This document shows positions 4,021-40,086 of a stretch of DNA of 64,000 nucleotides, one piece after another; the stretch's first letter is position 1, and each line of letters starts with the position of its first letter. This stretch comes from a virus. Its lineage: Duplodnaviria; Caudoviricetes. Location of the stretch: the IMG/VR virus record IMGVR_UViG_3300033072_000360, positions 129-64,128 of that record. The stretch is one strand, 5' to 3'. The notes beneath the pieces are model-generated. The model was not told where the DNA came from, searched no databases, and was given only the letters and a program-made list of their open reading frames with translations. A program made the translations under genes and the position numbers.

Positions 4021-4659
4021 ATGCCACAGACGCCCAAAAAACAAAAGGATACTTATCCAATATCGCCACCGCCAACTAAGATTAATCAACGCACAGGAGA
4101 TGCTGCACCCGGACAAGGTAAATACCTTACACGTCTAGCAAACAACAGGGCATCAATTACTGTGAATCGTCTTAATGACATTGGTACATTATATGATTCA
4201 CCAAACAGGCCGTATAAAGGTTTTTATAAAAGAGACTATCTCAACGTACCGCGCACAGATGCATATTATGAAGAGATAAATCCACTACGAAAATTTAAAT
4301 TAGACTCAGAAACTCTTCAAAAAAATTTAGTGCGGAGTAATCAAGTAACTGACTCGTTAAAATTACCACAGTCCGATAAAGGTAAAGCAGCACAGATTCA
4401 ATCCAAGGCAGCACCTAAACCATCAGTCGTTGAAACTGCTGCAAAAACAGCAGCAGGTACAGGTGTTCTGGCTAGTCCACTTGCTAAAGGTGTAGGTGCA
4501 ATTGGAGTTGTTGCTGCAGCTCAAAAGGGTGCAGGGCTACCACCAAAACAAGAAAATGCAGCGGTTGACGAATGGAACAAACGCACAAATTATGGACGCA
4601 TACAAGGCCCTACATCAAAAGCTTTGGGTGTAGTAAACGTAAAACCCGGTAGTAAATAA
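4021..4659 (+). CDS. hypothetical Lys/Pro/Ala-rich protein
   Basis: 212-aa ORF, AAGGAG RBS, TG-T-TATAAT extended -10 just upstream. Confidence 0.7.
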   Translation: MPQTPKKQKDTYPISPPPTKINQRTGDAAPGQGKYLTRLANNRASITVNRLNDIGTLYDSPNRPYKGFYKRDYLNVPRTDAYYEEINPLRKFKLDSETLQKNLVRSNQVTDSLKLPQSDKGKAAQIQSKAAPKPSVVETAAKTAAGTGVLASPLAKGVGAIGVVAAAQKGAGLPPKQENAAVDEWNKRTNYGRIQGPTSKALGVVNVKPGSK

Positions 4660-8009: not shown

Positions 8010-8055
8010 ATGTTATTGAATACTTGTTTATAGTATGATGTATCAAGGTGAAACC

Positions 8056-8307
8056 ATGGGCGTAATAAAGAAATACCAGAATCCGTCTGGGGGTTTAAAT
8101 GCAGCAGGTCGTGCGCATTACAATGCAACGACAGGATCAAATTTAAAACCTCCAGCTCCAAATCCGAAAACAAAAAAAGACGCAGGTAGAAGAGCGTCTT
8201 TTTGCGCACGTATGTCTGGTATGAAAAAAAAGCGCACATCATCGGAAACTGCAAATGATCCAAATAGCAGGATAAATAAATCCCTTCGCGCTTGGAATTG
8301 CAAATAG
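8056..8307 (+). CDS. conserved small basic phage protein (DUF6321-like)
   Basis: NPSGGLNAAGRAHYN...GSNLKPP...RRASFCARMSGMK...SLRAWNC pattern. Confidence 0.7.
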   Translation: MGVIKKYQNPSGGLNAAGRAHYNATTGSNLKPPAPNPKTKKDAGRRASFCARMSGMKKKRTSSETANDPNSRINKSLRAWNCK

Positions 8308-8317
8308 GAGAACTGTT

Positions 8318-8515
8318 ATGAGGAAGCCAACTGGAAAGTCTATGGCAGCAATGCTAGGAATGATGGGCGGTGGAAAAGCCGCACCGAAAAAGAAAGCTAG
8401 TAAGAAACCTGCGCCACGCAAAAGGGTTGTGCAGAAAGCTCCACCAATGCCACCAATGGGCGGTGGCGGTATGCCTCCAATGGGTGGTGGTATGCCACCA
8501 ATGGGAATGATGTAA
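8318..8515 (+). CDS. low-complexity Lys/Pro/Gly/Met protein
   Basis: GGAG RBS; KAAPKKKASKKPAPRKR and PPMGGG repeats. Confidence 0.65.
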   Translation: MRKPTGKSMAAMLGMMGGGKAAPKKKASKKPAPRKRVVQKAPPMPPMGGGGMPPMGGGMPPMGMM

Positions 8516-8517
8516 CT

Positions 8518-8778
8518 ATGATGGGACGAATGAACAAGCATATTAATAGGTTGTCTATGCGCGACTTGTTAAATGTGGAACGTAAAGAAGGCCACAAGGG
8601 CGTAACTGCAAAATCGCTTCCAGCCAAGGAAATGAAGGAGCATAACCTGAAAGGTGCGCCATCTATGGCTAAGATTCAACGAGCGGAAGCTTTAGAACAT
8701 CAAGGCAAAAACGGATTAGTATCTCGTCCATCAAAGAAACAACACATGGCTGCAACAAAAGCATATCGCGGAAGATAA
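8518..8778 (+). CDS. small basic hypothetical protein
   Basis: 86-aa ORF in the operon. Confidence 0.6.
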   Translation: MMGRMNKHINRLSMRDLLNVERKEGHKGVTAKSLPAKEMKEHNLKGAPSMAKIQRAEALEHQGKNGLVSRPSKKQHMAATKAYRGR

Positions 8779-8790
8779 GGGTCTAGGGGA

Positions 8791-11700
8791 ATGTCATCTT
8801 TTTTAGCTTCATTATTAGCAGGGTCAAATGCAGGTGCAGTTACACCGCAAACTGATGAATCTACAGGGACGCCATCCCCTACTCCTTCTACTCCACCTAA
8901 AAAAACTTTAAGTTTTGGTGCAAAAAAAGCCGAGCCAGCACGTAATCCACAACCACCAAGCGGTGTACCAGCAGACCCAGTAAGCATTGCAGTTGGGTTA
9001 CCCGGAGACCGACCGTTAGATGTTCGAATGCAGCCAAAAGAAAAGGCGCCAGTCATTGAAGCGCCAATGACTTTGGAAGATTGGAAAGCTGGTGGGTCTG
9101 GTTTAACATCATCTATTGGAAAATTTAATTCATTAGTTGCAGGGACGTCTGGCCAAGGTCCATTAAGCTACACTGAAGCAACAAAACGTTATTACAGTTC
9201 TTTGCCCGACGAGGAAAAAGAATCCAATCCATTTCATAGATTGCTAGGTAAAGCGCAATCGTTTGACCCAATGGATCCTACGCATGGCGTTGTACATGAT
9301 GCAATTGAACACGTTTCTAGAGCGCATGGTGTTCCAGATGGACAGGCTTTATTCAATAGTGCTGTACATCACGCTATTAGAGCATCTGCATTAAAACCTA
9401 AAACTGATCCTTTATATTGGAAAGCCACTGGGTCAAAGCTTGGTGATTATAGGTCTGAACTTCAATCATTGCGTCAGGCAATGGATCCCAATAATCCACA
9501 GGGTGAATCACAGTACGAGATACGTAAAAAAGCTAGGGAAACTGGAGTTAAAAATTTAACTGGCGCTCTTGCGAAATACATTGGTCAGTCAGTATTGGCA
9601 GATATTAGCAAGCAGGCAACTCCAGAACGAACAGGTATAACCGAAACTAAAAATATCCTTGAACATATAATGGGTAGTGGTGACGGTGATAATACACCGA
9701 TGTCACGAGTTGCTGCTTTAACTCGTGAATACGTAGAGGCATACGATTTTGACAAAACAGAACTTGGCAAAGACCTTGTTGCTAAGGCTGCAAACAATAC
9801 ATTAACAGATGAAGATATTGCGCAAGCTGCACATAAATGGAATGTAAAACAATTTATAGAGCCACGCATAAAACCTAGTGGAATAGACGATCCTGCTGCA
9901 TTTGCAAAAACACATCAAGAATACAAGGCTAATCCTACAGGTGGATTGCAAGGGATGGCACGTTATTCATCACCTGACTTTATGCGCATATACACTGGAA
10001 GTGATGACGCTGACACATTAGCTGAACAACGCGTAACAAGAGGTCATACACCTTTTGCCAATGTATCAGATCAGGAAACAGCTTCACGACTTGGCAAATC
10101 TGGATTAGATGATCGAACGTGGGGTCAGTTTGATTCACGCGCAAATATGGTTGGCGCATTGTTCAGTGGATTGTCCCTTACTGACGATCAAACAAGAACA
10201 CTAGCAGCAAAGATGGGCTTTAACACAACGGCTGAGCGCGATCAGTTTGTTATGGGCACAGGCATGGATGGTATGTCTGGTGAAGCACTGATGGCAATGG
10301 AAGGACGCGTGGGTGCTGTAACCAATGCCAACGAATCTGTTGAACAAGACAATAGCAATAACACATTAGCAAAAAAGGTAATGACTGGTGCAAGCTGGGT
10401 TAAGAACAGCAAGCATTTTACACCAGATCAAAAAGCTGCTTTTAATTCAAGGCTTTTACATATCAGTGATATTGCTACATCATTAACAGAGACAGCTACT
10501 GGTGGCAATGTTGGTAAAGGTAAAAAACAATCAATTGCGATTTATCATCCTTTTGCTTTAACGACTAAGGGTGAAGGATCATATGAAATGAAAGACCCTA
10601 TCGGGTCTTATAAATCTGGGCATTTTGATATGTACCGTCCCGCTACGGATATATCAATGGGTCCACAAACTGTGTTCCAGACAGCATTAATGTTTGAGCA
10701 TGCTGCACAAAATACTCCGTATCGTGCGCAGTTTGGATACTTGGTTAAATCAGCACAGAGCATTGCGCAGACCAAAGAGCAGCTGTCTTCATTAAATGAG
10801 CAACTGACAAAATTAAATGAGCTTGAACCTAAAAGTGGCTTTGAACCAAAATACGAAGCACGTAGAAACGAAATAAAAGCCCAGATTGCCATGCTGGACA
10901 AGTCGTTAAAAACTGTTTCAACTGCAAGTCAAATCCAAATATCACCAATTGATTTTGAAAAACGAATACGGTTAGCAGCAAATCGCGTGTATAGAGATGC
11001 GCAAGCAGATCCCTCATTTAAAGGCAAAATTGAGGGTGAGATTGGGATGAACATTGATGGTAATGCGTACGAATTTACTACAGCATTATTAAAACGTTTA
11101 CAAGATCCCGCAGCTGGACCTCGCGTTATGAGGGCAATTGGAACTGCGTTATTAGGTGCTGATGCCATTGTCAGAAACGATCAAACAAAACGATCTGGTA
11201 AAAATACAGCTAGTCCGACAGAGCGAGCTGCGCTTAAATCAATTGATGCAAAACAAAAAGCGCAAGGAGAATTTGTCACTGCACAACTTGGAATTCCACT
11301 GCAGGAATTAGTTACAAAACATAAACCAAAACCAGTAAGCGAAGTCGAAAAAGCACGTGCAGCACTAGGCGGTGATTTAACTTTAACGCAAGACGAGCAA
11401 GGTTTAAAAACACGCATTGCTGAATTAAATGCAAAGCAATTAACTACTACTGGTTTAACCGAAGATGAAGATGTTGAATTAAGCCAGAAACAAAAACAGT
11501 TGTCTGATTCTGTCGGAGCACGTTCTAATGCCGCACCACAAGGTGCAAACCGAAGTACTATTGATAATGACGTTTGGACGTTACTGAACGAGAACGCAAA
11601 ATACCTTATACCAAAATCAAATCAGGCTGAATTTATTGGACCCGATAAACAACTAACAGCTGAAGGTAAACGGTATTTACAAAGCGCTCATACTGCTCTG

Positions 11701-14700
11701 TCTTCATGGGTATATAACGCATCTAATGACAATGCGTCCCCAGAGAGTAAGCAAAGAGCTTTAAACGCAATTCAGTTCCCTGCAGATGCAATTACCAATA
11801 TTGAGGCCCGTAAAGAATCGCCAAGAACTACAAGTGGGCTTGATGCTGGATATGCATTGTTTCCAGCGTACGACCCTAGAAATAAACGAAATGTTGGTTC
11901 ACCAACAGAATGGGATCGTGTAAATGAAACAAAGAGAGACAAGTTACTAGCTGACATTGGTACAGCACACACGCGATTAACAGGTTTGCAATCTGAGGCA
12001 AAAAGTGCACAGCAAGCACTTGACACATTTACGGCTTTATCACCAGAGGGTAAAGAACAATATGTTAAAGGATTTGATGATGGTCGCACTGTAAATGAAC
12101 ATCTTGAAAAACTAACAGACACAGCGACTAAGACCGCACAGGCAGTAGAAAGTAACAAAGACGCGCAACAGCGTTTAGCATTACAACTACATGAACATCA
12201 TAATCCAGACGTTCCATTTTCGGCTGGCGGTCCAATGACCCAGAAAGATTATGAAGAACAGAAAGCGGTCAAAGTAAAGGAAACTGCCGACACAAATAAA
12301 CATATTGCAACATTAAATAATTGGAAAAAGGCAACACCGCAAGCTAAAGAAGCTGCGTACAACTGGGTTCAAAAAGCGTATCAAGAAGGTACGTTACCTC
12401 CGGGATTTGACCCGTTGCCAAGCGTAAAGAAAGGTGCGATTGGTGCAGTAACACGTATTGCCTATCCGACATTTGAGGATTCATTAGATTTTCAAAGTGG
12501 CCGTTGGACAGCTGATTATGACTATCCGCACAAACCACGCCCACATTTAGGAATGGATACAGTGCAGGGGAGGATTAAAGTACCTAATCCGCATTTATCC
12601 ATTTTAATGAAAGTGCACAAAGATACGGGTGTGCCATCATTTGAAGTTGTTGAATATAAAATTAACGGTACTAAGAAAACTGTGTTTGCACGCCAGCGAA
12701 TTCATATTGCTGGTGCTGCATCTGCTCCACATGAATCTTCATTTAAAGATGGAAATAGTTATATAACAAACAGCCAGTTTTTCTACGGAGTACATCAAAA
12801 ATTAGATCCTATTGAAGCAAAAATTGAAGACCTTGCCAAGGCAAGAAAAACGGCTTTGCAAAACGGGCAAGCCGTTGATAGTGATGCAGTTAAATCACTT
12901 GACACTCAAATTGCTGCACTTAACCAACAGGCGCAACCATTAAGGACACAGCTAGAACCAGAGCGTCAATATAAAATAATTGAACAGCAATACAAAGATC
13001 GCAAGCAAGCACAAGATGACTTGGCTGCGGTTATGAAAGCGTTGCGTAATACAAGATCTATTAATGCGCAAATTGCAGAAGTAGATAAAAAACTTACAGG
13101 CGAATTAACTGACGATGAACGCGCTAAATTAACGGCATCTAAAGCAAAATTAACTGAGGCTTTGGGGCGTACTCAGCAATCTGTATTCAGTAAATTTGGA
13201 AAAGAATTTGAAACAGCCGCATCCAGAATGACAGAAGCGGATCTCAAAAAGTTTGATTTAAATCAAGCAGATTTTAATTTACTGACAAATATCAAGACGC
13301 TTCTTACGGATGACGCAACTGCTTTTGAGGCTAATGAATCATATGACAAATTGATTCAGAAGATGTCGCAGAGCGCTAAGGGAACTCCACTCTACGATTT
13401 AATTAAACGCGTTGAAAGTTTGGGGACAGGATTTAAACGCCCAGACAAACTTACGTTTGCAGAATCTGGAGACTGGACTCTTGGCGAAACAGCAAAGCGT
13501 TACACGAAACCAGCTCGTGATTCCTTTAAAGATGTAGGTTCATTTGTAAAATTTAATGCAATTATGAACAGGCAGGCTGACAGCGCTGCAATAGTAGACG
13601 CCAAGGAGCAGGCAAAGTTATTACCAATAAAGCGAGCCGCAATTGTTCGTGGTGGTTTTGGTCCAAATGGAAAATTGCAGGCTGCAAATCTTGATGCCTT
13701 TGTCAAGAAGATGTGGCAAGTAGCAATTGATGAATCTCCAATTAATTTAAAAACGACATTTAAAAAATACACTGATGACAAACCAGTAAAGTATTCGGTT
13801 GCTCGTTTTTACAATGACGTATGGCGTTATCTACCAGATCACGTAAAAGCAAATTCTGGAGTATTACTGCAAGATATTCCAAAGCGTCAATTAGACGCAA
13901 TGTCTGCGCGTGACCGAACTAAAATCGAATCCGCATTCAAAAATAATAGTATTGTTTTACCAGCATTGCCCGGAGCAACAACAACACAGCCTAGTAACTG
14001 GGCCGAATTAACAATTCCAAATAGAGGGCAAGTACGATTTGACAGACCTATGCCAGCTTGGTGGGAAGATCAAGTTGGCCAGTTGACACCAAAAGCCCAA
14101 CGTGATGTCAGGCATGCTGTTGACGTTATGTCAGTCATTAACAGAATGGCTAAAAATCAACGATTCCCGTACAGCGTTAATTTTGATAACTCCAATATTG
14201 TAGATGCAGCAACCAGTGCCGAATCACGATATCCAAATGGAGCTACAGTACAGCCAAAAGATATACCTAACGGCCCATTAGTAAACCGTCCACCAAAATA
14301 TAAAATGGAGGAATTTGATCAAAATATTCAACGGTTAATGGGCGTTCATCCTGAATATGCACAGATGTCGCCAGCTCAAAAAAATGCAGCAACGCAACGT
14401 GCTTACAGTGACATACTTGGATTGTCTAATGTTTATGTAGCATTAAATATGGGATGGAATATTAGGCGTGATGCACCAACAACTGTTGATGCTGGTGGCA
14501 ACGCGTTAAAGATTCCGGGGCGTATTACTATGACGCCAGTGCCTAATCCGCCAGTAAAGTTTGAAGGTTCTACATACGTTGCGCCATCAGCAAAACAGGC
14601 AGATCGTTATCCAATGTTCGGAGCTGGAGAGTTAGCATCGTTTACTCAGGCGTGGTCTCGTAAACTTTATCCAACACAGACAACCGTATCACCAACAAAA

Positions 14701-16161
14701 ATTGAAACAAATGCGGTAGCTGCAGCAAGAAACAATTTAGATACGCAATTGCGATCACACGCAACTTTAGAAGCAGGATTAAAATTAGCGCAAGCAAAAT
14801 TAACCACTGCTCGATCTGAGGCCAAAACTAACCCTACACCTGAAAACATAGAAGCTGCAAAAGCAGCACAAACGGCAGTGAAACAAATTGAAGCGCAAAT
14901 TAAAGTCAGTAATGGCCCTAAGCTAAAAAGTGATTTAGGTCGCATTAATGCTGAATATAAATCGGCAGGTGTATATGGTAATAGGTTTGGAGGGACGGCT
15001 CAAGATGCACACGAATTTTTAACTCAGTTAAAACAACAACATCCAGATAAGTACAGAAAATTAGCTGGCTGGAGTAAATACCATACTCCTACTGGAGGAT
15101 TAACAATTGATGACTTTATGGGAATGGATCCGTCAAAAATTACCGGGCCAAATAAAGCCAAGGTCGGAGCATTACTTGACGGCATTTTTTCCGATCACGT
15201 GCCGCAAACTGCTAAAGCTAAAGTTGCAGCATTGGTTGACTTAAAATCCAGAGATTCACATGAATTAGAAAGACTAAGACGTAACTATAATCGCAACAAG
15301 ACCTCTAAAGATCCATCATTTGATAAATTGCTAAAACTTGAAGGGAATATATCTGATGATGAAACGGAAGCATTGACAAAAGTATTTGACAATTCATCGT
15401 GGGCTAAATCTCCGGTTGCTACATGGTTTGCGTATAAGCCGACGCGCCCAGCTGTCGAACCAGAACCAGCTGGTAGATATACTCCAAACCTTGGAGCTAG
15501 AGTGGCAGCACAATTAAAGAGAGGCTTTACACCTGTCAATGCTGCAAACCTTACGCAGGCAGAACGAGATTTTGTAGCTGCATTTGCTGATTTCCGAGTG
15601 CCAAATAAATACGAACCAGTTCGTCGTCAGGAGGCACATCGTATTGTTGGTTTAGTTATCCCTGAAGTGCGTAAAGATGGACAGCTTGTAACACCTGAAC
15701 GTACATTGCAAATTGATGGACCTGAATTTAGAACTGTATTACGCCGTATGATGGCTAATCCAGAATTGTTTAAAGATGCTCAATTCCTACAAGAATCTGG
15801 CATCAAGGTGTTCAGAATTGGTATGCGTAAATTTAATACGGCGGAAGGCTCAATAACGACCGCATACGACAGTGCAACTAGAAGGCCGGGTGCAAACGCA
15901 CAGGCTTGGTTGCAATCTGAAGGATGGCGTGATCAACAGGCTGCAGAATTACTATCTGGCGGTAAAGCTAAACAAGCGTCAGCAAGAGTTGAAATTTCAA
16001 AGGCTGCACTGCCAGTAAGTGAAAGTACAGTGCGAATTAAAAAGGTAGCTGGTAAAGCAGGAATGACACCATTGCTTGCTATTACAATGGCACTGATGGA
16101 CGGAGTAATTAAAGGTGTCACGGACATTGACCCAAAACTTGTAGTAAAGGGAAATAAATAA
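8791..16161 (+). CDS. giant hypothetical protein (2456 aa), possibly virion-internal
   Basis: Uninterrupted 7.4-kb ORF; disordered Pro-rich N-terminus, coiled-coil-like segments; no recognised catalytic motif. Confidence 0.85.
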   Translation: MSSFLASLLAGSNAGAVTPQTDESTGTPSPTPSTPPKKTLSFGAKKAEPARNPQPPSGVPADPVSIAVGLPGDRPLDVRMQPKEKAPVIEAPMTLEDWKAGGSGLTSSIGKFNSLVAGTSGQGPLSYTEATKRYYSSLPDEEKESNPFHRLLGKAQSFDPMDPTHGVVHDAIEHVSRAHGVPDGQALFNSAVHHAIRASALKPKTDPLYWKATGSKLGDYRSELQSLRQAMDPNNPQGESQYEIRKKARETGVKNLTGALAKYIGQSVLADISKQATPERTGITETKNILEHIMGSGDGDNTPMSRVAALTREYVEAYDFDKTELGKDLVAKAANNTLTDEDIAQAAHKWNVKQFIEPRIKPSGIDDPAAFAKTHQEYKANPTGGLQGMARYSSPDFMRIYTGSDDADTLAEQRVTRGHTPFANVSDQETASRLGKSGLDDRTWGQFDSRANMVGALFSGLSLTDDQTRTLAAKMGFNTTAERDQFVMGTGMDGMSGEALMAMEGRVGAVTNANESVEQDNSNNTLAKKVMTGASWVKNSKHFTPDQKAAFNSRLLHISDIATSLTETATGGNVGKGKKQSIAIYHPFALTTKGEGSYEMKDPIGSYKSGHFDMYRPATDISMGPQTVFQTALMFEHAAQNTPYRAQFGYLVKSAQSIAQTKEQLSSLNEQLTKLNELEPKSGFEPKYEARRNEIKAQIAMLDKSLKTVSTASQIQISPIDFEKRIRLAANRVYRDAQADPSFKGKIEGEIGMNIDGNAYEFTTALLKRLQDPAAGPRVMRAIGTALLGADAIVRNDQTKRSGKNTASPTERAALKSIDAKQKAQGEFVTAQLGIPLQELVTKHKPKPVSEVEKARAALGGDLTLTQDEQGLKTRIAELNAKQLTTTGLTEDEDVELSQKQKQLSDSVGARSNAAPQGANRSTIDNDVWTLLNENAKYLIPKSNQAEFIGPDKQLTAEGKRYLQSAHTALSSWVYNASNDNASPESKQRALNAIQFPADAITNIEARKESPRTTSGLDAGYALFPAYDPRNKRNVGSPTEWDRVNETKRDKLLADIGTAHTRLTGLQSEAKSAQQALDTFTALSPEGKEQYVKGFDDGRTVNEHLEKLTDTATKTAQAVESNKDAQQRLALQLHEHHNPDVPFSAGGPMTQKDYEEQKAVKVKETADTNKHIATLNNWKKATPQAKEAAYNWVQKAYQEGTLPPGFDPLPSVKKGAIGAVTRIAYPTFEDSLDFQSGRWTADYDYPHKPRPHLGMDTVQGRIKVPNPHLSILMKVHKDTGVPSFEVVEYKINGTKKTVFARQRIHIAGAASAPHESSFKDGNSYITNSQFFYGVHQKLDPIEAKIEDLAKARKTALQNGQAVDSDAVKSLDTQIAALNQQAQPLRTQLEPERQYKIIEQQYKDRKQAQDDLAAVMKALRNTRSINAQIAEVDKKLTGELTDDERAKLTASKAKLTEALGRTQQSVFSKFGKEFETAASRMTEADLKKFDLNQADFNLLTNIKTLLTDDATAFEANESYDKLIQKMSQSAKGTPLYDLIKRVESLGTGFKRPDKLTFAESGDWTLGETAKRYTKPARDSFKDVGSFVKFNAIMNRQADSAAIVDAKEQAKLLPIKRAAIVRGGFGPNGKLQAANLDAFVKKMWQVAIDESPINLKTTFKKYTDDKPVKYSVARFYNDVWRYLPDHVKANSGVLLQDIPKRQLDAMSARDRTKIESAFKNNSIVLPALPGATTTQPSNWAELTIPNRGQVRFDRPMPAWWEDQVGQLTPKAQRDVRHAVDVMSVINRMAKNQRFPYSVNFDNSNIVDAATSAESRYPNGATVQPKDIPNGPLVNRPPKYKMEEFDQNIQRLMGVHPEYAQMSPAQKNAATQRAYSDILGLSNVYVALNMGWNIRRDAPTTVDAGGNALKIPGRITMTPVPNPPVKFEGSTYVAPSAKQADRYPMFGAGELASFTQAWSRKLYPTQTTVSPTKIETNAVAAARNNLDTQLRSHATLEAGLKLAQAKLTTARSEAKTNPTPENIEAAKAAQTAVKQIEAQIKVSNGPKLKSDLGRINAEYKSAGVYGNRFGGTAQDAHEFLTQLKQQHPDKYRKLAGWSKYHTPTGGLTIDDFMGMDPSKITGPNKAKVGALLDGIFSDHVPQTAKAKVAALVDLKSRDSHELERLRRNYNRNKTSKDPSFDKLLKLEGNISDDETEALTKVFDNSSWAKSPVATWFAYKPTRPAVEPEPAGRYTPNLGARVAAQLKRGFTPVNAANLTQAERDFVAAFADFRVPNKYEPVRRQEAHRIVGLVIPEVRKDGQLVTPERTLQIDGPEFRTVLRRMMANPELFKDAQFLQESGIKVFRIGMRKFNTAEGSITTAYDSATRRPGANAQAWLQSEGWRDQQAAELLSGGKAKQASARVEISKAALPVSESTVRIKKVAGKAGMTPLLAITMALMDGVIKGVTDIDPKLVVKGNK

Positions 16162-16754
16162 TGGATCCAGTTGAATTGTTAATGTTTTTAACTCAGCGAA
16201 GCCCAAACTATACCAGAGCATTAGCTCAGCCGGGATTAGCCAATAAAGTAAATGGCATAGCAGGTTTAGCACATGAAGAACTAAATAATTTTCTTACAGA
16301 TATTCCAGCAAGAGCAGGCGGACGACTTGGCGGAGCTGCAATAGGTGGAGGTATTGGTTCATTGTTTGGACCTGCAGGTACAGCAACTGGCGCAACTTTA
16401 GGATCCGTTGTTGGGCCACATGCAGTAAACGCAATGAAAGATACTATGTGGAATAATTTTGTTACTCCTCATGTATTAAATGGATGGCACGCAATTAACC
16501 CTGCTGAAAAAATGGGGTTAGATAATAATCCCGGTGAGCTAGATACAATGCTTACGCAAGCATTTAAGTACTTGGATGACAGGCACCCAATGCATAAAAT
16601 GAATCAAGCAATTTATGACAATGTACAGCCAGCTTCCAGAAAGGCTACTAAGCAAACAGCAAGTAATATTTTAGGGCTATTGAATTCTAAATCAACAAAT
16701 AAAGAAGGCTATGTTTCTCGACAGTCTTTGCGAGAAATAGGTATGCAAAAATAA
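16161..16754 (+). CDS. glycine-zipper-containing protein
   Basis: GGRLGGAAIGGGIGSLFGPAGTATGATLGSVVG; TAATG-coupled on both sides. Confidence 0.65.
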   Translation: MDPVELLMFLTQRSPNYTRALAQPGLANKVNGIAGLAHEELNNFLTDIPARAGGRLGGAAIGGGIGSLFGPAGTATGATLGSVVGPHAVNAMKDTMWNNFVTPHVLNGWHAINPAEKMGLDNNPGELDTMLTQAFKYLDDRHPMHKMNQAIYDNVQPASRKATKQTASNILGLLNSKSTNKEGYVSRQSLREIGMQK

Positions 16755-17491
16755 TGACAGAGGAAAGGTATCGCGTAGGCGTTGCAGGGGGGAAGTCATT
16801 ATTGTGCCAAGCACAAATTGCCAATGACAAGCTATGCAATAATATTGCAATTAAAGGGCGCAAGTACTGTAAGCATCACGGCGGAAAATTACCAGTTGCA
16901 CAAGAAAGCGCTCTGTTTAAAACGGGATTGTGGTCCGCGCAACGCCGTAGGTTTGCCAACGTTGCACCAAAATTATTAACACGTATCAACGAGTTGCGTG
17001 AGGACCCTGAGCTATTTAGTTTAAAAGATGATGCTGCATACATTACAGCATTGATGGACACGCGAGCCGAAGCTGCCTCGGCAGGTGTAAGTTTAGAACA
17101 TTACGAAAGCATACGTGATCAATACAACGTATGTAAACATGCACTTGGCAGCGATAGCTTTGATGACGCATTTAAATATTTGGGTAAACAAATCAGAGAT
17201 GGCATAGATGAATACAAGGCTTCTAATGATGTTGTAGACCTAATTAAAAAGCGCACAGAAGTAATCGAGGCAGAACAAAAAATTATGCAAGCAAAAGCAT
17301 ATACGCTTGAAGTTGATCAGGCGTATAGTTTAATTATGCAGATTTTAAAAGTAGTGCAAGCTAACGTAAAAGACCCGCAAGAAATGTCAGCGATAAAAGA
17401 TGGGTTCTCTAAATTATTGCGAGTGTACCAAGAAGAAGAAATTCAAGACGCAGAAATTATAGAAGATGATCAAGCAACACAGTGCAGCTAG
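16754..17491 (+). CDS. probable terminase small subunit (N-terminal HGGxSTG-like Zn motif)
   Basis: LCQAQ...LCNNIAIKGRKYCKHHGG; position directly before TerL. Confidence 0.65.
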   Translation: MTEERYRVGVAGGKSLLCQAQIANDKLCNNIAIKGRKYCKHHGGKLPVAQESALFKTGLWSAQRRRFANVAPKLLTRINELREDPELFSLKDDAAYITALMDTRAEAASAGVSLEHYESIRDQYNVCKHALGSDSFDDAFKYLGKQIRDGIDEYKASNDVVDLIKKRTEVIEAEQKIMQAKAYTLEVDQAYSLIMQILKVVQANVKDPQEMSAIKDGFSKLLRVYQEEEIQDAEIIEDDQATQCS

Positions 17492-19214
17492 GTTAACTCC
17501 AAAGAACTTCAAGAAGCATGTAAGGCCATCGAAATCATTGTCATTAGCCTTACTTGAAGCAATGAACGAAGAGCTTGGCGTTATTATTGCAACTGGAGAT
17601 TATGATAGCGGTAAAGCTGTGGCTCTCCCGGGATCCGAATTAAATTATGAGGATTGGTTAAGGAAGGCAGCGCCCCATGCAACGTCAAGCAAAATGGGTG
17701 ACCACCACGTACGTGCGTGGAAATGGGCTGAATCTCTAGAACCGGGTGTCGCTCCACCTGCGTTGATTGAATGTTGGTTTCGCGGTGGCGGTAAATCAAC
17801 AACAATGGAATTGATATCTAGTCGCGTTGCAGTTAAAGCTACGCGCAGGTTTTTGTTATACGTATGTGCTACACAGGATGCAGCAAACAGACACGTCGGT
17901 GACATCGCGGGAGTTATGGAACGCTGTGGTATTGAACGAGCAGTCAATCAGTATGGTTTTTCAAAAGGTTGGAATGCTAGTAAATTGCGTACTGCTAATG
18001 GGTTTAATGTCCTTGCTTTCGGTCTTGATACTGGTGCTCGTGGCGTTAAGCTTGACCATCTTAGACCTGACATGATTATCTTAGACGACATTGACGAGTT
18101 AGACGACTCGGTAAATAGAGTTGAAAAGAAAATACAGACAATTACTCAGACGATTCTGCCAGCTAAAAGTAATGACTGCGCAATTGTATTTGTGCAAAAC
18201 AGAATCCACTCTAACTCTGTTATGTCACGCGTACTTAGCGGTGACATAGACATGTTGCAAAACAGAATTCAAAGTCCTATTGTTCCAGCGGTTGATGGCC
18301 TTGAATATATGCCGGTGGAAAAAGAAGATGGTCGTACTGGATGGAAAATTATTGCTGGAACAGCAACGTGGGCACATAAAAATATTGACGTTTGTCAACG
18401 CGAGATTGATGACTTTGGTTTGATTCCGTTCTTACGTGAATGTCAGCATGACGTTGGTGTTGGAGGCAGGTTCTTTCCAGACTTTAAAGAGTATGGGTCT
18501 GATGGCAATCCATGGCATGTTGTAGATTCTGTTGATGTTCAACCATGGTGGAGGTTTTGGGCAAGCCACGACTATGGGACTGGCGCACCCGCGTGTTTCT
18601 TGCTATACGCTAGTGATGAACGGGAAAACGTTTATGTGTTAGGTGAGTGGTATCAAGCAGGAAAAGTTTCATCTGATCAAGCACAAGGCGTTTGTGAATT
18701 CATGGAAAAACACAAAGTAGCACAGCCAGTAAATCCACAGCGTAGAAGTGGACAGTGGAACACAAAGATTGAGGCGATTGCATTTGACTGGGCAAATACT
18801 TTTCCTCCAAAAAACGTTGAGGAACGTATTGGTGAATATCCAGTAGAGTGTTGGTGGGAAAAGAAACTACCAGCAGTTCGTGCAGTGAAAGACAGAAAAG
18901 CTGGTTGGGCAAGAGTAAAAGAATGGTTAGCGGCTACAGAATTCGTTGGCGGTGAGATCCGACCTAAGTTGCGGCTAGTTCGAGGTGGTTGTCCAAATTT
19001 GATAAAGCAATTAACAGATACAATGAGCCATACAAAAGACGCTGATGAAATTGACAATGGTACTAAGAACGATCACGCCATAGATAGTTTTAGGTATGGA
19101 ATGATGTGGCGCGAATATCCTGTTAAGTGTCCAGAAGTTAGTTCATCGGAAGCCTTAGAGAACTCTCGTGTTCCATTATGGTTACGCAAGGATGACAAAA
19201 AAGAATGGTTGTAA
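17466..19214 (+). CDS. terL: terminase large subunit
   Basis: Walker A FRGGGKST, Walker B IILDDID, RNase H-like nuclease residues SHDYG and DHAIDSFRYG. Confidence 0.92.
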   Translation: MIKQHSAARLTPKNFKKHVRPSKSLSLALLEAMNEELGVIIATGDYDSGKAVALPGSELNYEDWLRKAAPHATSSKMGDHHVRAWKWAESLEPGVAPPALIECWFRGGGKSTTMELISSRVAVKATRRFLLYVCATQDAANRHVGDIAGVMERCGIERAVNQYGFSKGWNASKLRTANGFNVLAFGLDTGARGVKLDHLRPDMIILDDIDELDDSVNRVEKKIQTITQTILPAKSNDCAIVFVQNRIHSNSVMSRVLSGDIDMLQNRIQSPIVPAVDGLEYMPVEKEDGRTGWKIIAGTATWAHKNIDVCQREIDDFGLIPFLRECQHDVGVGGRFFPDFKEYGSDGNPWHVVDSVDVQPWWRFWASHDYGTGAPACFLLYASDERENVYVLGEWYQAGKVSSDQAQGVCEFMEKHKVAQPVNPQRRSGQWNTKIEAIAFDWANTFPPKNVEERIGEYPVECWWEKKLPAVRAVKDRKAGWARVKEWLAATEFVGGEIRPKLRLVRGGCPNLIKQLTDTMSHTKDADEIDNGTKNDHAIDSFRYGMMWREYPVKCPEVSSSEALENSRVPLWLRKDDKKEWL

Positions 19215-19345
19215 TGTGCTGGCTAGTTACAATTATTGGATTGCTGCAACTAGCGGGAATAGCTGTAATCGTTAAGGTGTTATATGCAATACTTGAGACT
19301 AAAGTTTACATCGAACGATTAGTTAACGAGGAGAAGTGGGTCTAA
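19214..19345 (+). CDS. 43-aa membrane peptide
   Basis: MCWLVTIIGLLQLAGIAVIVKVLYAILETKVYIERLVNEEKWV; TAATG overlaps with the terL stop and the portal start. Confidence 0.6.
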   Translation: MCWLVTIIGLLQLAGIAVIVKVLYAILETKVYIERLVNEEKWV

Positions 19346-21534
19346 TGGCTGATTTAACTGATTTACTTACTGGTGGCATGCAGCCAAAGATGAGCGCATT
19401 CAAGAAGCCATCATCAGTTCCGACTGTCGGTTCCTTTCCTGCTGGTAATTTAGCGCTAGTAAAAAAAGATGACTTAACGCTTGACCATGAACCAAACCAT
19501 TGGAAAGTAGATCCAAAAAAACAGCCCGAAGAAGCAAAGAAAGTAATAGCTTTTATTTCAGATCAGTTCCAATCAGCACAAAGATCACGACAGGAAATGG
19601 AACTGGAATGGGCGTTGGCAACTTCATTTTTTGAGGGACGGCAATGGTATCGCATCAGTAGTCAGGCCCGTAATTTAATTAACCTGCAGAATCCTAATGA
19701 GCCAAATCGTTACATGACGATCAATAAAATTCGTCCATTAATTGACGGCGTTATTGGCAAATTAACACAATGTAGTCCAGATGCATCATCAGTTCCTCTA
19801 TCTGAATCAGATCATGATAGAGCTGCCTCAGATGAAGCAAATTATATTGTCAAGCATTACAACCGTAAGTTTCATCGCGAGACGCAAACTAAAGAACGAG
19901 TAAGATGGGCTTGCGTATGTGGCACATCGTATTTGAAGATTTTCTGGGATTCATCTAAAGAACAAGTTGTTCCTCAAATGGGTTTAGATGGAATGACTGT
20001 GCTTGGTCATACAACAATGAGAGTCGGAGATATTGTTGAGCAGATTTTGCCAGCGTTTGACGTGTACCTTGACCCAAGTGCAAAACGAGATGAGGATGTT
20101 CGGTGGTTAATACATGCAATGATTAAGCCATTGTCATGGTTTGTAGACAGTTACGGCGAAGCTGGTAAAGGCGTACGGGCTGACGCCAACATGGGGCATA
20201 ACGCTGGTTATATAGATGCATACCTAGATAGTTCTAAAGGTTCTGGTGGAGGATGGATACCGCCATCGTCAACGCACGTAAACAACACAGAAAAGAATAA
20301 AAATGCTGCAGTTGTTTACGAGTATTGGGAAAAGCCATCAATTCAATATCCAGATGGTAGATACATTGTGTGTACAAGTACTGCTCTTCTTTACGCTGGC
20401 GTATGGCCATACAAGAAAAAGGATAGCTTTCCATTTGTTCCATTACGATGGCAACCTCGCGCAGGAACGCCATATGGTTACAGTCTAAGTTACGATCTTG
20501 TCAGCCTGCAGACAACATACAACAGGATTTACTCACGTTTACTTGAACAGTTTGAAGGCCAAAAAGATTACATAATGGTCGAGCGTTTAAGTAATGTGGG
20601 AGCAGATGCATACGATAGGCAGAGCGACACGGTTGAGGATAAGAACCGTGTGTACCGAAAAATATATTATGATCGCGGTGCGCATCCACCAGTAATTCAA
20701 CGTGCTCCGGGAATTGGCTCGGATTTATTTCCGTTACTACAGTTTCTAGAAAAGGACATGTCTGACATTGCTGGATTACACGATGTGAGTCAAGGCATGG
20801 CACAAGCTGGTACACCAGCTGAATCTGTTCGATTGTTACAGAAAGCCGATAACACACAACACAGTTATATTAGGGCTGATATTGAAATAAGTAATGCAAG
20901 AATTAAGGAATGGGAAGTTGAATTAATTGAGCAATTTGCCATTGTTCCATTTATCGGAAACGTTGAGGGAGGCATGCTTCCCAAAGACCAAATACAGCAA
21001 GGTGTAATGCGTTTTGACGCTATCCGAAACGGAGGCAAGTACCGCATTGTTTACATACCGGGTTCTACTATGGATGATGGACCAGAGGCTAGACTTCAAA
21101 AATATGCAGCCCTGCGTCAAATGGGTGTTTTTGGTGACCCGATGGATCCAGACACAAATAAGTTATTTGTTGAATTAGTAAACATGACGGAAACATCAAA
21201 AATTTTAGAGCACTTGGATATACAGGCTCAAAAGATGGCTGCTGCTCAGCAGCAACAACTTGAAATGCAGCAACAAGCAGCTGCTGCTCAAGCTCAGCAA
21301 CAGGATCAATATAATCCACAAGCTGAAGAACATAAAACAATGCTTGAGATTGAAAAAGCCAAAGCCGAAATTGCAGCAAAACTTGCAGCGGATATTCAGT
21401 TGGCAACAGCCAAGGCTGGATTGGAAGCGCAACAAAACGAAGATTACGCTATGGTTGATTTAGGCAAACAACACGTCATGAATACGATGCAGCCAGACAC
21501 TGGCGAACAAGGAAAAAGTGAGGGTACAATTTAA
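19345..21534 (+). CDS. portal protein (P22-like)
   Basis: Size and position after TerL; FFEGRQW, INKIRPLID, YEYWEKP; Gln-rich C-terminal barrel. Confidence 0.85.
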   Translation: MADLTDLLTGGMQPKMSAFKKPSSVPTVGSFPAGNLALVKKDDLTLDHEPNHWKVDPKKQPEEAKKVIAFISDQFQSAQRSRQEMELEWALATSFFEGRQWYRISSQARNLINLQNPNEPNRYMTINKIRPLIDGVIGKLTQCSPDASSVPLSESDHDRAASDEANYIVKHYNRKFHRETQTKERVRWACVCGTSYLKIFWDSSKEQVVPQMGLDGMTVLGHTTMRVGDIVEQILPAFDVYLDPSAKRDEDVRWLIHAMIKPLSWFVDSYGEAGKGVRADANMGHNAGYIDAYLDSSKGSGGGWIPPSSTHVNNTEKNKNAAVVYEYWEKPSIQYPDGRYIVCTSTALLYAGVWPYKKKDSFPFVPLRWQPRAGTPYGYSLSYDLVSLQTTYNRIYSRLLEQFEGQKDYIMVERLSNVGADAYDRQSDTVEDKNRVYRKIYYDRGAHPPVIQRAPGIGSDLFPLLQFLEKDMSDIAGLHDVSQGMAQAGTPAESVRLLQKADNTQHSYIRADIEISNARIKEWEVELIEQFAIVPFIGNVEGGMLPKDQIQQGVMRFDAIRNGGKYRIVYIPGSTMDDGPEARLQKYAALRQMGVFGDPMDPDTNKLFVELVNMTETSKILEHLDIQAQKMAAAQQQQLEMQQQAAAAQAQQQDQYNPQAEEHKTMLEIEKAKAEIAAKLAADIQLATAKAGLEAQQNEDYAMVDLGKQHVMNTMQPDTGEQGKSEGTI

Positions 21535-22424
21535 TGTCCGATGAGATGGTGATGCGGACCGCTGATTCACCAGCAGCGGCAACGGATTTTGGAGGGATGT
21601 CAGCAGCTTTATTTGGTAGTCAGCAAGTCGCCGATGCTGATAGTGGGGGTGAGGCGTTAAATTCCACATACAACCAAACTAGCGACGACTCCGTAGATGT
21701 TGATGATCTGAGCTGGCTCACCGAAGAAGAACCTTCAAGTGAAGATGCAGTTCGACAAACAATTTATGATGCGTTAAGTAATGGCGATCAACCCAAGAGT
21801 GTTCCATATGAACGCTTTCGCGAGGTTAATGAGCAAGCCAAACAGGCAAAGGCAGCGTCCGACAACTACAGTCAGTGGTCCGACGTTATATCAATGCTTG
21901 AACAAAACGGATACAAAAGCGGCAAAGACGTACAAGCAGCTTTAGCCGCACAAGCCGCAGCGCAGCAAGAAAACGAGATTAGACAACGTTATGCTGGAAT
22001 GGCGAATAATAATATTATTAGCCACGAAGTAGCAGACGCACAGGCTGAATCAGAAATCCTGCGTTTAAAGAATGAGCAACTTGTCAACACCATGTCAAAT
22101 TACATGGTCCAACAGCAAAAAGCGCAAGCATATGAACAGTTTCCATATGCTCGACGTGCTGAATCAGTAGTTGAAAGTTTAGTTCAAAGCGGTATCAATC
22201 CATTGCAAGCAGCTGAAATGGTTCACGGACAAATTAGTAATTTGGCCGAGACATTAATTCCAGAAATCACCGCAATGGTTGCCAGCCAACGAAATGTGCC
22301 AACACCTATTGACACATCAAGTTCAGCACAACCCCTAGTTCCACAACAAGCCCCACCTCGCGGAATGAATTTAAGTTCAATCACTCGACTGTTGGGTATT
22401 GGTAGGAACCCTAACACCATCTAA
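21534..22424 (+). CDS. capsid scaffolding protein
   Basis: Acidic N-terminus, VPYERFREVNEQ motif, located between portal and capsid. Confidence 0.75.
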   Translation: MSDEMVMRTADSPAAATDFGGMSAALFGSQQVADADSGGEALNSTYNQTSDDSVDVDDLSWLTEEEPSSEDAVRQTIYDALSNGDQPKSVPYERFREVNEQAKQAKAASDNYSQWSDVISMLEQNGYKSGKDVQAALAAQAAAQQENEIRQRYAGMANNNIISHEVADAQAESEILRLKNEQLVNTMSNYMVQQQKAQAYEQFPYARRAESVVESLVQSGINPLQAAEMVHGQISNLAETLIPEITAMVASQRNVPTPIDTSSSAQPLVPQQAPPRGMNLSSITRLLGIGRNPNTI

Positions 22425-37484: not shown

Positions 37485-38273
37485 ATGGACCCAATCACAG
37501 CAGGTTTAATCACCAACGTAGTAGGTTCTGCGTTTAAGCCAAAAGCGCAATACAACCCAATGATGCAGCATCAAATGGCTGCAATGAATGCTAAAAAGAG
37601 TTACATACCCTATTTTAATGATTTGATTAAACAGGGTAGCGGCTTGCAGAAGTCCTATATGCCGAAGGCTCAGAAGATGGCGGATATGAGCATTGAGAAT
37701 GCTAATAAGCCATTATCTGACACGGATTTATTTAAAGGTATTGGGCCAATGGCATCCGTGTTGCAAAGACAGGGTGATGCAGTAACATCTAATGCAACAA
37801 ACATCGGGTCTCAACGCGGATTATATAACCCAATGGGTGGATGGCTTGGTTCCGGAATGGATCCAAATGCTGGCACTAACGCGGCTATTGCAGGAGCAGG
37901 TGCTCAGTTTGCTAATCAATATGAATTGGGCAAACAAGACAGATTAAACAACGCATTTGGAATCGCCAACAGTATGGCCGGACAAGGTACAAACATGATG
38001 CAAGGTGGCATCAACGGTGCGCAGGGCGCATGGAGCGACTTTGGTCAAGAGGCGGGAAACATTGGAGCACAACAGCTTCAGGCACAGCAGGCAGCTCAAG
38101 CTCAACATGCTCAGTTAATGAACATGCTTGGGACTTATTGGGGCAATCAATATGCCAACAATCAGTTTAATAAACAACTTGGATTACAACGTGAGGCAAA
38201 TGCTATTGCAAAGGCCGGAGCTGGCGGTGGATTCAAGGGGCCAACTGCACCAGACGGAACCCCGTTAGCATAA
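37485..38273 (+). CDS. DNA pilot/ejection protein 1
   Basis: Gly/Gln/Met/Ala-rich, MDPITAGLI start; first of three genes of increasing size after the nozzle. Confidence 0.6.
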   Translation: MDPITAGLITNVVGSAFKPKAQYNPMMQHQMAAMNAKKSYIPYFNDLIKQGSGLQKSYMPKAQKMADMSIENANKPLSDTDLFKGIGPMASVLQRQGDAVTSNATNIGSQRGLYNPMGGWLGSGMDPNAGTNAAIAGAGAQFANQYELGKQDRLNNAFGIANSMAGQGTNMMQGGINGAQGAWSDFGQEAGNIGAQQLQAQQAAQAQHAQLMNMLGTYWGNQYANNQFNKQLGLQREANAIAKAGAGGGFKGPTAPDGTPLA

Positions 38274-38287
38274 TAGAGGATAAATAA

Positions 38288-40057: not shown

Positions 40058-40086
40058 CTTACTGTTTGATAAAAGGTGTTGCTTAC

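What the first reader, a model, noticed from the sequence alone, without database searches (positions are those of the whole stretch)
8791..16754. Giant 2456-aa orphan plus glycine-zipper partner placed upstream of the terminase
Seen: a 7.4-kb ORF with no motif I recognise, translationally coupled (TAATG) to a 197-aa glycine-zipper protein and then to TerS-TerL. The genome already has the usual three ejection-type genes at 37.5-53 kb. Known: in podoviruses very large proteins normally sit in the ejection cluster after the tail genes, and glycine zippers mediate membrane helix packing or pore formation. Inference: this may be a second, independent injected module (cargo plus membrane partner) for host takeover or anti-defence, or a large non-virion assembly scaffold. 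It is the best candidate here for an undescribed protein system.
Basis: partly seen in the sequence, partly recalled or inferred. Interest (0 to 1): 0.72.

Follow-up and report, generated by a model that had tools for sequence, protein, structure and literature searches.

The report
Giant cysteine-free orphan phage protein pair
An uncultured freshwater phage encodes, just before its DNA-packaging genes, a real 2456-residue protein with no detectable relatives or known fold plus a small glycine-zipper partner; their composition matches proteins that model phages pack in the head and inject, but this is untested.

Summary
ORF 8791-16161 (2456 aa) and ORF 16161-16754 (197 aa) exist and are joined by TAATG overlaps to each other and to the putative TerS-TerL-portal genes. 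The giant is under strong purifying selection (pN 0.20, pS 0.73 against a 70% relative). The gene order recurs in the one relative whose DNA I could fetch.

The giant is an orphan. Pfam, PHROGs, NCBIfam, PADLOC, PDB sequences, INPHARED tblastn and Foldseek against the PDB gave no specific match. An exhaustive HMMER scan of 1.84 billion representatives with its C-terminal half found only its own family. AlphaFold2 models are almost all helical, with low to moderate confidence.

New here: the giant, its partner and all their homologues contain no cysteine (P about 5e-10). The phage's putative ejection trio (262/589/4329 aa) and the scaffold-position ORF share this. In T7, P22 and N4 controls, ejected proteins have 2 Cys in 8051 aa; other proteins have 0.81%.

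Best reading (about 0.5): a late-made, low-copy, capsid-internal and ejected protein pair, the partner supplying a membrane-inserting segment. Rivals are an assembly scaffold or core, and a non-packaged intracellular protein. The biochemical function is unknown. This fits a known kind (packaged phage cargo) in a new, enzyme-less form. Interest is moderate.

The parts
8791..16161 (+). Giant orphan gene. It encodes 2456 aa with no Cys and net charge +41, and is predicted to be almost entirely helical.
8791..9057 (+). N-terminal 89 residues of the giant. A conserved amphipathic start (MSSFLASLLAG) is followed by a Pro-rich region predicted disordered. The disordered region carries invariant short motifs (KKTLxFGAKK, VGxPGDRPxDxR).
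   Evidence: pLDDT below 50 for residues 1-89
15508..16158 (+). C-terminal region of the giant, about residues 2240-2456. It is the best-conserved part (50-58% identity to the 34% homologue), basic, and ends in a conserved hydrophobic helix (GMTPLLAITMALMDGV). AlphaFold2 does not fold it with confidence.
16159..16163 (+). TAATG overlap between the stop of the giant and the start of the partner.
   Evidence: same 1-nt overlap in L004
16161..16754 (+). 197-aa Cys-free partner protein. Its flanks are invariant (residues 13-49 and C-terminal LREIGMQK).
16308..16418 (+). Glycine-zipper segment of the partner, residues 50-86. The GxxxG periodicity is kept in all homologues while the sequence varies. 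Kyte-Doolittle hydropathy is about 1.0-1.5. It gives sub-threshold matches to the Gly-zipper part of DUF6861.
16752..16756 (+). TAATG overlap between the stop of the partner and the start of the 245-aa putative TerS.
8035..8778 (+). Three small basic ORFs upstream: DUF6321 (90 aa), a 65-aa low-complexity protein and an 86-aa protein. They precede the giant in the same order in L004 and probably form the head of the same late unit.
16754..21534 (+). Downstream packaging genes in the same unit: putative TerS (245 aa), TerL and a P22-type portal.

Best explanation
The 2456-aa protein and its 197-aa partner are late-expressed, low-copy internal proteins of the phage head. They are made from the same transcription unit as terminase and portal and loaded into the procapsid. 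At infection they are expelled through the portal-tail channel in an extended state, as with T7 gp14-16, P22 gp7/20/16 and N4 gp50-52. The partner's glycine-zipper segment inserts into the host envelope. The giant has no enzymatic signature, is all-helical and is basic, most strongly in its C-terminal third. It therefore probably acts structurally or by binding (a conduit extension, or a DNA or host-factor binder) rather than catalytically. Shown: the gene pair is real, constrained, conserved and coupled to the packaging genes; it is an orphan; it has the composition of channel-transiting proteins. Inferred: packaging, ejection, membrane insertion and any activity in the host.
For: 1. Context. 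There are only 12 nt between the upstream ORF and the giant's start. TAATG overlaps link giant, partner and putative TerS. No convincing + strand terminator lies between about 8.0 and 22 kb. The block DUF6321-65aa-86aa-giant-partner-242aa-TerL is kept in L004 at 70% identity.
2. Composition. The giant has 0 Cys in 2456 aa, where other ORFs of the genome average 0.87% (P about 5e-10). All ten homologues of the giant, including the 34% one, have 0 Cys, as do the four homologues of the partner. The 262/589/4329-aa proteins in the ejection-gene position and the 296-aa scaffold-position ORF are also Cys-free, with similar low hydrophobicity (about 25%) and high Ala.
3. Controls. T7 gp6.7/7.3/14/15/16, P22 gp7/20/16 and N4 gp50 (3500 aa)/51/52 total 8051 aa with 2 Cys (0.025%). 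Thirty other proteins of those phages have 111 Cys in 13654 aa (0.81%). The scaffolds T7 gp9 and P22 gp8 have 0 Cys.
4. Fold class. The predictions are almost entirely helical, with long hairpins and an 89-residue disordered N-terminus. The best BFVD Foldseek rows are uncharacterised phage proteins, tape measures, LPD-domain proteins and a Cellulophaga phage structural protein. This resemblance is generic.
5. Partner. It gives weak PHROG matches to the Gly-rich parts of tape measure, tail lysin and internal virion proteins. Its Gly-zipper aligns to positions 23-84 of DUF6861 (P0016 27.8 bits, cut-off 28). A preprint describes DUF6861 as the N-terminal membrane domain of polymorphic toxins (10.1101/2022.08.23.504947).
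6. Copy number. The SD-like sequence is weak (AGGGG, 1 nt from the ATG) compared with AAGGAG for the capsid gene. This suggests few copies (inference).
Against: No homology to any known ejection, internal virion or polyvalent protein was found. The position upstream of TerS is unusual for large internal proteins. The phage already has a candidate ejection set at 37.5-53 kb. The Cys-free, Ala-rich, helical composition is also typical of scaffolds and of long coiled-coil proteins in general, so it does not single out ejection. The AlphaFold2 models have low confidence (pLDDT 64.5 and 52), so a hidden catalytic domain is not excluded. The glycine-rich stretch is only marginally hydrophobic and is the least conserved part of the partner. 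There are no proteomic or expression data. Synteny was checked directly in only one relative, at 70% identity.
Confidence: 0.5

Rival explanations
1. The giant is an assembly-only factor: a core, ruler or scaffold that helps build or size the large procapsid, or recruits portal and terminase, and leaves before or during DNA packaging. It would be absent from mature virions. The small partner would be its chaperone or anchor.
For: Its composition equals that of the T7 and P22 scaffolds: 0 Cys, Ala-rich, about 25% hydrophobic, helical. It is translationally coupled to the packaging genes. The termini are conserved and could dock on portal or coat.
Against: A 296-aa acidic, Cys-free ORF already occupies the canonical scaffold position between portal and capsid genes. 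Scaffolds are needed in hundreds of copies, whereas this gene has a weak SD-like sequence and encodes 270 kDa. A glycine-zipper membrane-type partner has no evident role in scaffolding.
Confidence: 0.15
2. The giant is a non-packaged intracellular protein made in the middle-to-late period. It would be a cytoplasmic or membrane-associated organiser of replication or assembly, or a host-takeover or anti-defence binder. The partner would tether it to the inner membrane from inside.
For: The gene lies at the border between the DNA-metabolism genes (thyX, dut, ssb) and the late genes, not within the tail or ejection cluster. It is net basic (+41), with a strongly basic C-terminal third that could bind nucleic acid. 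No virion-protein homology was found.
Against: Most cytoplasm-type ORFs of this genome contain Cys; only two of those tabulated, 158 and 212 aa long, lack it. A complete absence over 2456 aa, kept across the family, is hard to explain for a purely cytoplasmic protein. There is no terminator or promoter-like break separating the gene from the packaging genes. PADLOC and Pfam show no defence or anti-defence domain.
Confidence: 0.2
3. The giant is a tail or appendage structural protein, tape-measure-like or a long fibre shaft, encoded away from the tail genes.
For: Foldseek BFVD rows include tape measure and minor tail proteins (E from 5.7e-4 to about 0.06). The partner's Gly-rich part matches PHROG 167 (tape measure) at 1.3e-5.
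Against: The TM-scores are about 0.06-0.14, which indicates generic helical similarity. The giant itself gives no PHROG tape-measure hit. No tail-tube or sheath gene was recognised in the structural block. Tape measures are encoded next to tail chaperones.
Confidence: 0.05

Closest known systems
Ejection / internal virion proteins of podoviruses (T7 gp14-gp15-gp16; P22 gp7-gp20-gp16; N4 gp50-52)
   Same: Both are late genes of a phage with a portal-terminase system. Both are Cys-free, Ala-rich, low in hydrophobic residues and predicted helical. Both include a small membrane-active member alongside large members. Sizes up to 3500 aa are known (N4 gp50).
   Different: There is no sequence or fold match. 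The pair is encoded upstream of TerS rather than after the tail genes. It lacks the lytic transglycosylase of gp16 and the polymerase of gp50. It would be a second set beside the 262/589/4329-aa genes.
Phage polyvalent proteins (Iyer, Burroughs, Anand, de Souza, Aravind 2017, PMC5512222), including P1 DarB/DdrB
   Same: Both are giant proteins of terminase-portal phages. Polyvalent proteins are predicted, and for DarB shown, to be packed in the head and delivered with the DNA. They are often encoded beside virion genes.
   Different: Polyvalent proteins are defined by strings of recognisable effector domains (metallopeptidase, ADP-ribosyltransferase, methylase-helicase, LPD1-40). Pfam finds none of these in the giant. 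That description fits the neighbouring 4329-aa protein with its weak M78/HExxH hit better.
DUF6861 (PF21724), N-terminal glycine-zipper membrane domain of polymorphic toxins
   Same: The partner's GxxxG stretch and the residues just before it align to profile positions 23-84. The preprint describes DUF6861 as an N-terminal integral membrane domain with a glycine-zipper motif, found fused to several toxin domains.
   Different: The scores lie below the gathering cut-off (20.8 and 27.8 against 28 bits). Only a third of the profile is covered. The partner carries no toxin domain and is a separate 197-aa phage protein.
T7 gp6.7 and gp7.3
   Same: These are small virion or injected proteins encoded upstream of the portal and outside the gp14-16 cluster (annotation). 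This is a precedent for ejected proteins encoded ahead of the head genes.
   Different: They are tiny (88 and 99 aa) and unrelated in sequence. There is no giant companion.

Membership tests
Phage polyvalent proteins (PMC5512222) | Two or more recognisable effector or LPD domains in one polypeptide | tested here: not met
   Pfam-A, which holds the LPD and MPTase models, gave 0 families at E <= 0.01 for P0001 and P0006.
Phage polyvalent proteins (PMC5512222) | Encoded by a phage with a portal-terminase packaging system, near virion genes | tested here: met
   TerL and a P22-type portal lie directly downstream.
T7/P22-type ejection (internal virion) proteins | Sequence or profile homology to gp14/15/16 or gp7/20/16 families | tested here: not met
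   The giant gave no PHROG or Pfam hit. The partner gave only a weak Gly-rich match to PHROG 6056 'internal virion protein' (E 0.006).
T7/P22-type ejection (internal virion) proteins | Gene position after the tail genes, at the end of the structural module | tested here: not met
   The pair lies upstream of TerS. The 262/589/4329-aa genes occupy that position.
T7/P22-type ejection (internal virion) proteins | Composition of channel-transiting proteins (Cys-free, Ala-rich, low hydrophobicity). This is my own criterion, calibrated on T7, P22 and N4. | tested here: met
   The giant has 0 Cys in 2456 aa and the partner 0 in 197 aa, as do all homologues. Controls: 0.025% against 0.81% Cys.
T7/P22-type ejection (internal virion) proteins | Presence in virions and release on infection | not testable with these tools
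   The phage is uncultured and no proteomic data are held.
N4-like virion RNA polymerase | Match to RNA polymerase families | tested here: not met
   No Pfam or PHROG polymerase hit was found. No D.D.D or DxDGD string is present. The prediction is all-helical.
Tape measure proteins | Profile match to tape-measure families and linkage to tail tube and chaperone genes | tested here: inconclusive
   The giant gave no PHROG tape-measure hit. The BFVD tape-measure rows have TM-scores below 0.11. No tail-tube gene was recognised, but most structural ORFs here are unannotatable.
DUF6861 (PF21724), for the 197-aa partner | Score at or above the Pfam gathering cut-off (28 bits) over the domain | tested here: not met
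   P0002 scored 20.8 bits, P0013 20.7 and P0016 27.8. P0014 and P0015 gave no hit. Only profile positions 23-84 of 194 are covered.
Procapsid scaffolding proteins | Gene between portal and major capsid genes, with a C-terminal coat-binding helix-turn-helix | tested here: inconclusive
   The position criterion is not met: a 296-aa ORF holds that slot. The composition criterion is met. Coat binding is not testable here.

The most novel reading that the evidence does not exclude
The pair is a second, self-contained injected module. A 270-kDa non-enzymatic helical protein is delivered with, or ahead of, the genome through its own glycine-zipper membrane partner. In the cell it acts as a structural device, for example coating or escorting the incoming DNA or building an intracellular platform. 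This would be a kind of packaged phage cargo with no catalytic domain and no relatives outside one small freshwater phage lineage.
Probability: 0.2. Interest if true: 0.7.

Novelty: new variant of a known kind. Interest (0 to 1): 0.42.

Why it matters
If the pair is packaged and injected, phages would be shown to carry very large cargo that is not an enzyme array, encoded and co-translated with the packaging machinery rather than with the tail. The calibration done here also matters more widely. Complete absence of cysteine separated the known ejected and scaffold proteins from other proteins in T7, P22 and N4. That gives a cheap, sequence-only predictor that could flag capsid-internal proteins among the many unannotatable ORFs of uncultured phages. 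The family itself is very rare: two clusters at 50% identity among 1.84 billion representatives. Its direct biological reach is therefore small.

Tried and rejected
Family and sequence searches with no hit:
- Pfam, PHROGs, NCBIfam and PADLOC on the giant gave nothing.
- megablast and tblastn of the giant, and tblastn of the partner, against INPHARED phages gave no match.
- A PDB sequence profile search with A1 gave only chance coiled-coil rows (E >= 0.35).
- The ESM Atlas gave no usable hit for residues 1-2040. For residues 2040-2456 the best score was 0.81, below the lead level.

Structure searches:
- Foldseek against the PDB gave no match at E <= 0.001 for either half.
- VIA-align wide on both halves gave only generic helical hairpins (Z <= 10, within the range expected for helical models).

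Homologue searches:
- The search for homologous proteins found four clusters in the 'near' length range, none 'shorter', and five for the partner.
- The HMMER representative search failed twice, uncounted, because full-length P0006 pushed the profile above 1200 positions. The third try, with window and L004 pieces, found only P0005 and P0006. The N-terminal half was not searched this way.
- The search for related loci returned two 100%-identical fragments from viral contigs, nothing from genome contigs, and L004 only from metagenome contigs.

Tools and tests that gave no answer:
The contigs of P0005, P0006 and P0016 could not be read, so synteny in the most distant relative is unknown.
- Complex prediction (giant 2200-2456 with the partner) returned no answer, score 0.00. 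This is not evidence either way.
- No RNA holder was listed among the sequencing runs.

Comparisons that led nowhere:
- Paralogy with the 4329-, 1472-, 589- and 262-aa proteins is absent (blastp E >= 0.19).
- No N- or C-terminal motif is shared with the putative ejection proteins.
- Distant relatives by portal or TerL (Microbacterium phage Shocker, Sinorhizobium phage phiM6) have no giant gene near the terminase.
Full report
**What is there.** The window is almost the whole of a 64,128-bp IMG/VR virus record that CheckV rates complete. On the + strand an ORF runs from ATG 8791 to TAA 16161 (2456 aa), followed by ORFs at 16161-16754 (197 aa), 16754-17491 (245 aa), 17466-19214 and 19336-21534. 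The two junctions read TAATG. The last two ORFs are TerL (PHROG 38, 1.8e-25) and a P22-type portal (PF16510, 1.6e-29). The 245-aa ORF is TerS only by position, a weak PHROG hit and a sub-threshold HGGxSTG match.

Upstream lie thyX, dut, DUF3310 and ssb. A divergent small gene follows, then three small basic ORFs: DUF6321, a 65-aa low-complexity protein and an 86-aa protein. Only 12 nt separate the last of these from the giant's start. The pattern scan finds no convincing + strand terminator between about 8 and 22 kb. The minus-strand genes at both ends of the window include DnaB, an HTH initiator-like protein and Mu Gam. The giant therefore sits at the head of the late, packaging-plus-structural unit.

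**Is it real?** Yes. A 2456-codon open frame at 42% G+C cannot arise by chance. The protein database holds a 99% copy, two copies at about 70% and one 34% homologue of 2565 aa. All are collinear from the first Met to the last residues. Against the 70% relative recovered as DNA (L004), pN is 0.195 and pS 0.733, with every 200-codon block constrained. L004 keeps the whole block: DUF6321, 67 aa, 86 aa, giant, 198 aa, 242 aa and TerL, with the same one-base overlaps. Two further relatives of the partner sit on contigs whose lengths equal those of giant homologues (11,626 and 13,542 bp). This suggests linkage there too.

**Orphan status.** Pfam, PHROGs, NCBIfam and PADLOC give nothing for the giant. 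Neither do megablast or tblastn against 50,697 phage records, a profile search of PDB sequences or the ESM Atlas. A word-indexed search of 5.8 billion proteins finds only the four clusters, and no shorter fragments as separate clusters. An exhaustive HMMER scan of 1.84 billion representatives with a profile of residues 1307-2456 finds only the family's two representatives. The N-terminal half was not searched in that way.

AlphaFold2 with a six-row alignment gives an all-helical N-terminal half (pLDDT 64.5). Residues 1-89 are disordered and residues 90-400 are the best defined. The C-terminal half is weaker (pLDDT 52), mainly helical, with small strand patches. The very conserved last 240 residues are not folded with confidence. 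Foldseek against the PDB gives no match at E <= 0.001. VIA-align finds only generic helical hairpins at Z <= 10. Foldseek against BFVD gives three rows at E <= 0.001, the best at 4.7e-7 but with a TM-score of 0.14. Below them is a list dominated by tape measures, LPD-domain proteins and phage structural proteins. I read this as 'long helical phage protein', not as homology. No Walker A, HExxH, DxDxD or CxxC string is present.

**The partner.** The 197-aa protein has five family members, down to 49% identity. Residues 13-49, 93-145 and the C-terminal LREIGMQK are invariant. The glycine-rich stretch (residues 50-86) varies and has indels, but keeps the [GAS]xxx[GAS] register in every member. Its hydropathy (Kyte-Doolittle 19-residue mean 0.9-1.5) is marginal for a membrane helix. 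It gives sub-threshold matches to the Gly-zipper part of DUF6861 (20.8 bits; 27.8 bits for the 49% homologue; cut-off 28; profile positions 23-84 of 194 only). A preprint describes DUF6861 as the N-terminal membrane domain of polymorphic toxins (10.1101/2022.08.23.504947). Weak PHROG matches fall on the Gly-rich parts of tape measure, tail lysin and internal virion proteins. The invariant last residues overlap the ribosome-binding region of the next gene, which may add to their conservation.

**The new clue: no cysteine.** The giant has none in 2456 residues. The other ORFs of the genome average 0.87%, which gives P about 5e-10. The partner has none, and neither do any of the ten giant or four partner homologues. 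In this genome the other long Cys-free proteins are the 262-, 589- and 4329-aa products in the usual ejection-gene position and the 296-aa acidic ORF in the scaffold position. These share the giant's low hydrophobic fraction (about 25%) and high alanine.

To see whether this means anything, I counted cysteines in three model podoviruses taken from the annotated records. The set T7 gp6.7, gp7.3, gp14, gp15, gp16; P22 gp7, gp20, gp16; and N4 gp50 (3500 aa), gp51, gp52 totals 8051 aa with 2 Cys (0.025%). Thirty other proteins of these phages have 111 Cys in 13,654 aa (0.81%). The two scaffolds also have none. The signature thus marks proteins that must leave the capsid through a narrow channel. 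It also marks scaffolds, and perhaps long helical proteins in general. I did not measure its false-positive rate.

**Best explanation (confidence about 0.5).** The pair is made late and in few copies; the weak SD-like sequence supports low copy number by inference. It is loaded into the procapsid and expelled through the portal-tail channel at infection. The partner provides a membrane-inserting segment. The giant acts by structure or binding rather than catalysis. The conserved N-terminal helix with short motifs in a disordered linker, and the conserved C-terminal region, are candidates for the loading or docking signals. T7 gp6.7 and gp7.3 show that ejected proteins can be encoded ahead of the head genes. 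Everything after 'made late' is inference.

**Rivals.**
- An assembly-only core or scaffold (0.15). It has the same composition, but a scaffold-position ORF already exists and the predicted copy number looks low.
- A non-packaged intracellular organiser or host-directed binder (0.2). This fits the border position and the basic charge, but not the total lack of cysteine or the coupling to packaging genes.
- A tail or tape-measure-like part (0.05).

**Comparison with known systems.** The pair works most like podovirus ejection proteins and N4-type packaged cargo, but it fails the homology and position tests for those families. It is not a polyvalent protein in the sense of PMC5512222, because none of that class's domains is present. 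The neighbouring 4329-aa protein, with its weak M78/HExxH hit, fits that label better. I file it as a new, enzyme-less variant of packaged phage cargo, with function unproven.

**Habitat.** Near-identical sequence occurs in freshwater, riverine and estuary metagenomes from several studies. No RNA holder was listed.

**Verdict.** Interest is moderate (0.42): a truly isolated giant protein family with a testable prediction, but rare and without a demonstrated function.

Noticed in passing
window 21534-22424, 37485-53055 (and T7, P22, N4 loci L007, L008, L009): Complete absence of cysteine marks the 296-aa scaffold-position ORF and the 262/589/4329-aa proteins (5180 aa together). In T7, P22 and N4 it marks the known ejected proteins and scaffolds (2 Cys in 8051 aa against 0.81% elsewhere). 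This may be a usable sequence-only predictor of capsid-internal proteins.
   Followed up: partly
window 8318-8515: This is a 65-aa, Cys-free, very basic (+13) low-complexity ORF that is 20% Met. It ends in MPPMGGGGMPPMGGGMPPMGMM. It lies just upstream of the giant and is kept as a 67-aa ORF at the same place in L004. Its neighbour at 8518-8778 (86 aa, +13) is also Cys-free.
   Followed up: partly
window 8035-8307: A DUF6321 protein (PF19846, 1.4e-24) opens the block that leads into the giant and the packaging genes. No paper in the library mentions this family.
   Followed up: partly
window 40066-53055: The listed TTG start of the 4329-aa ORF has no SD-like sequence, so the true start is probably a few codons downstream. 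The only family hit is a weak Peptidase_M78 match at residues 2396-2434 (E 4.5e-4, below the cut-off).
   Followed up: partly
window 16754-17491: The putative TerS has only weak support: PHROG 10899 at 7e-4 over residues 16-50, and the NCBIfam HGGxSTG domain at 22.5 bits against a cut-off of 29.
   Followed up: no
window 17466-21534: TerL and the portal are very distant from those of cultured phages. The best tblastn matches are 25-31% identity over about 35-40% of TerL, and 22-24% identity for the portal (Microbacterium and Arthrobacter phages). The phage has no close cultured relative.
   Followed up: partly
window 4021-4659: The first + strand gene encodes a 212-aa Cys-free, strongly basic (+18) protein with low hydrophobicity and no Pfam hit.
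   Followed up: no
L002, L003 (IMGVR_UViG_3300033073_001121 and _001342): Two 10.7-kb IMG/VR contigs from one sample are 100% identical, over the matched coding segments, to the window. They look like fragments of the same phage filed as separate viral genomes.
   Followed up: no
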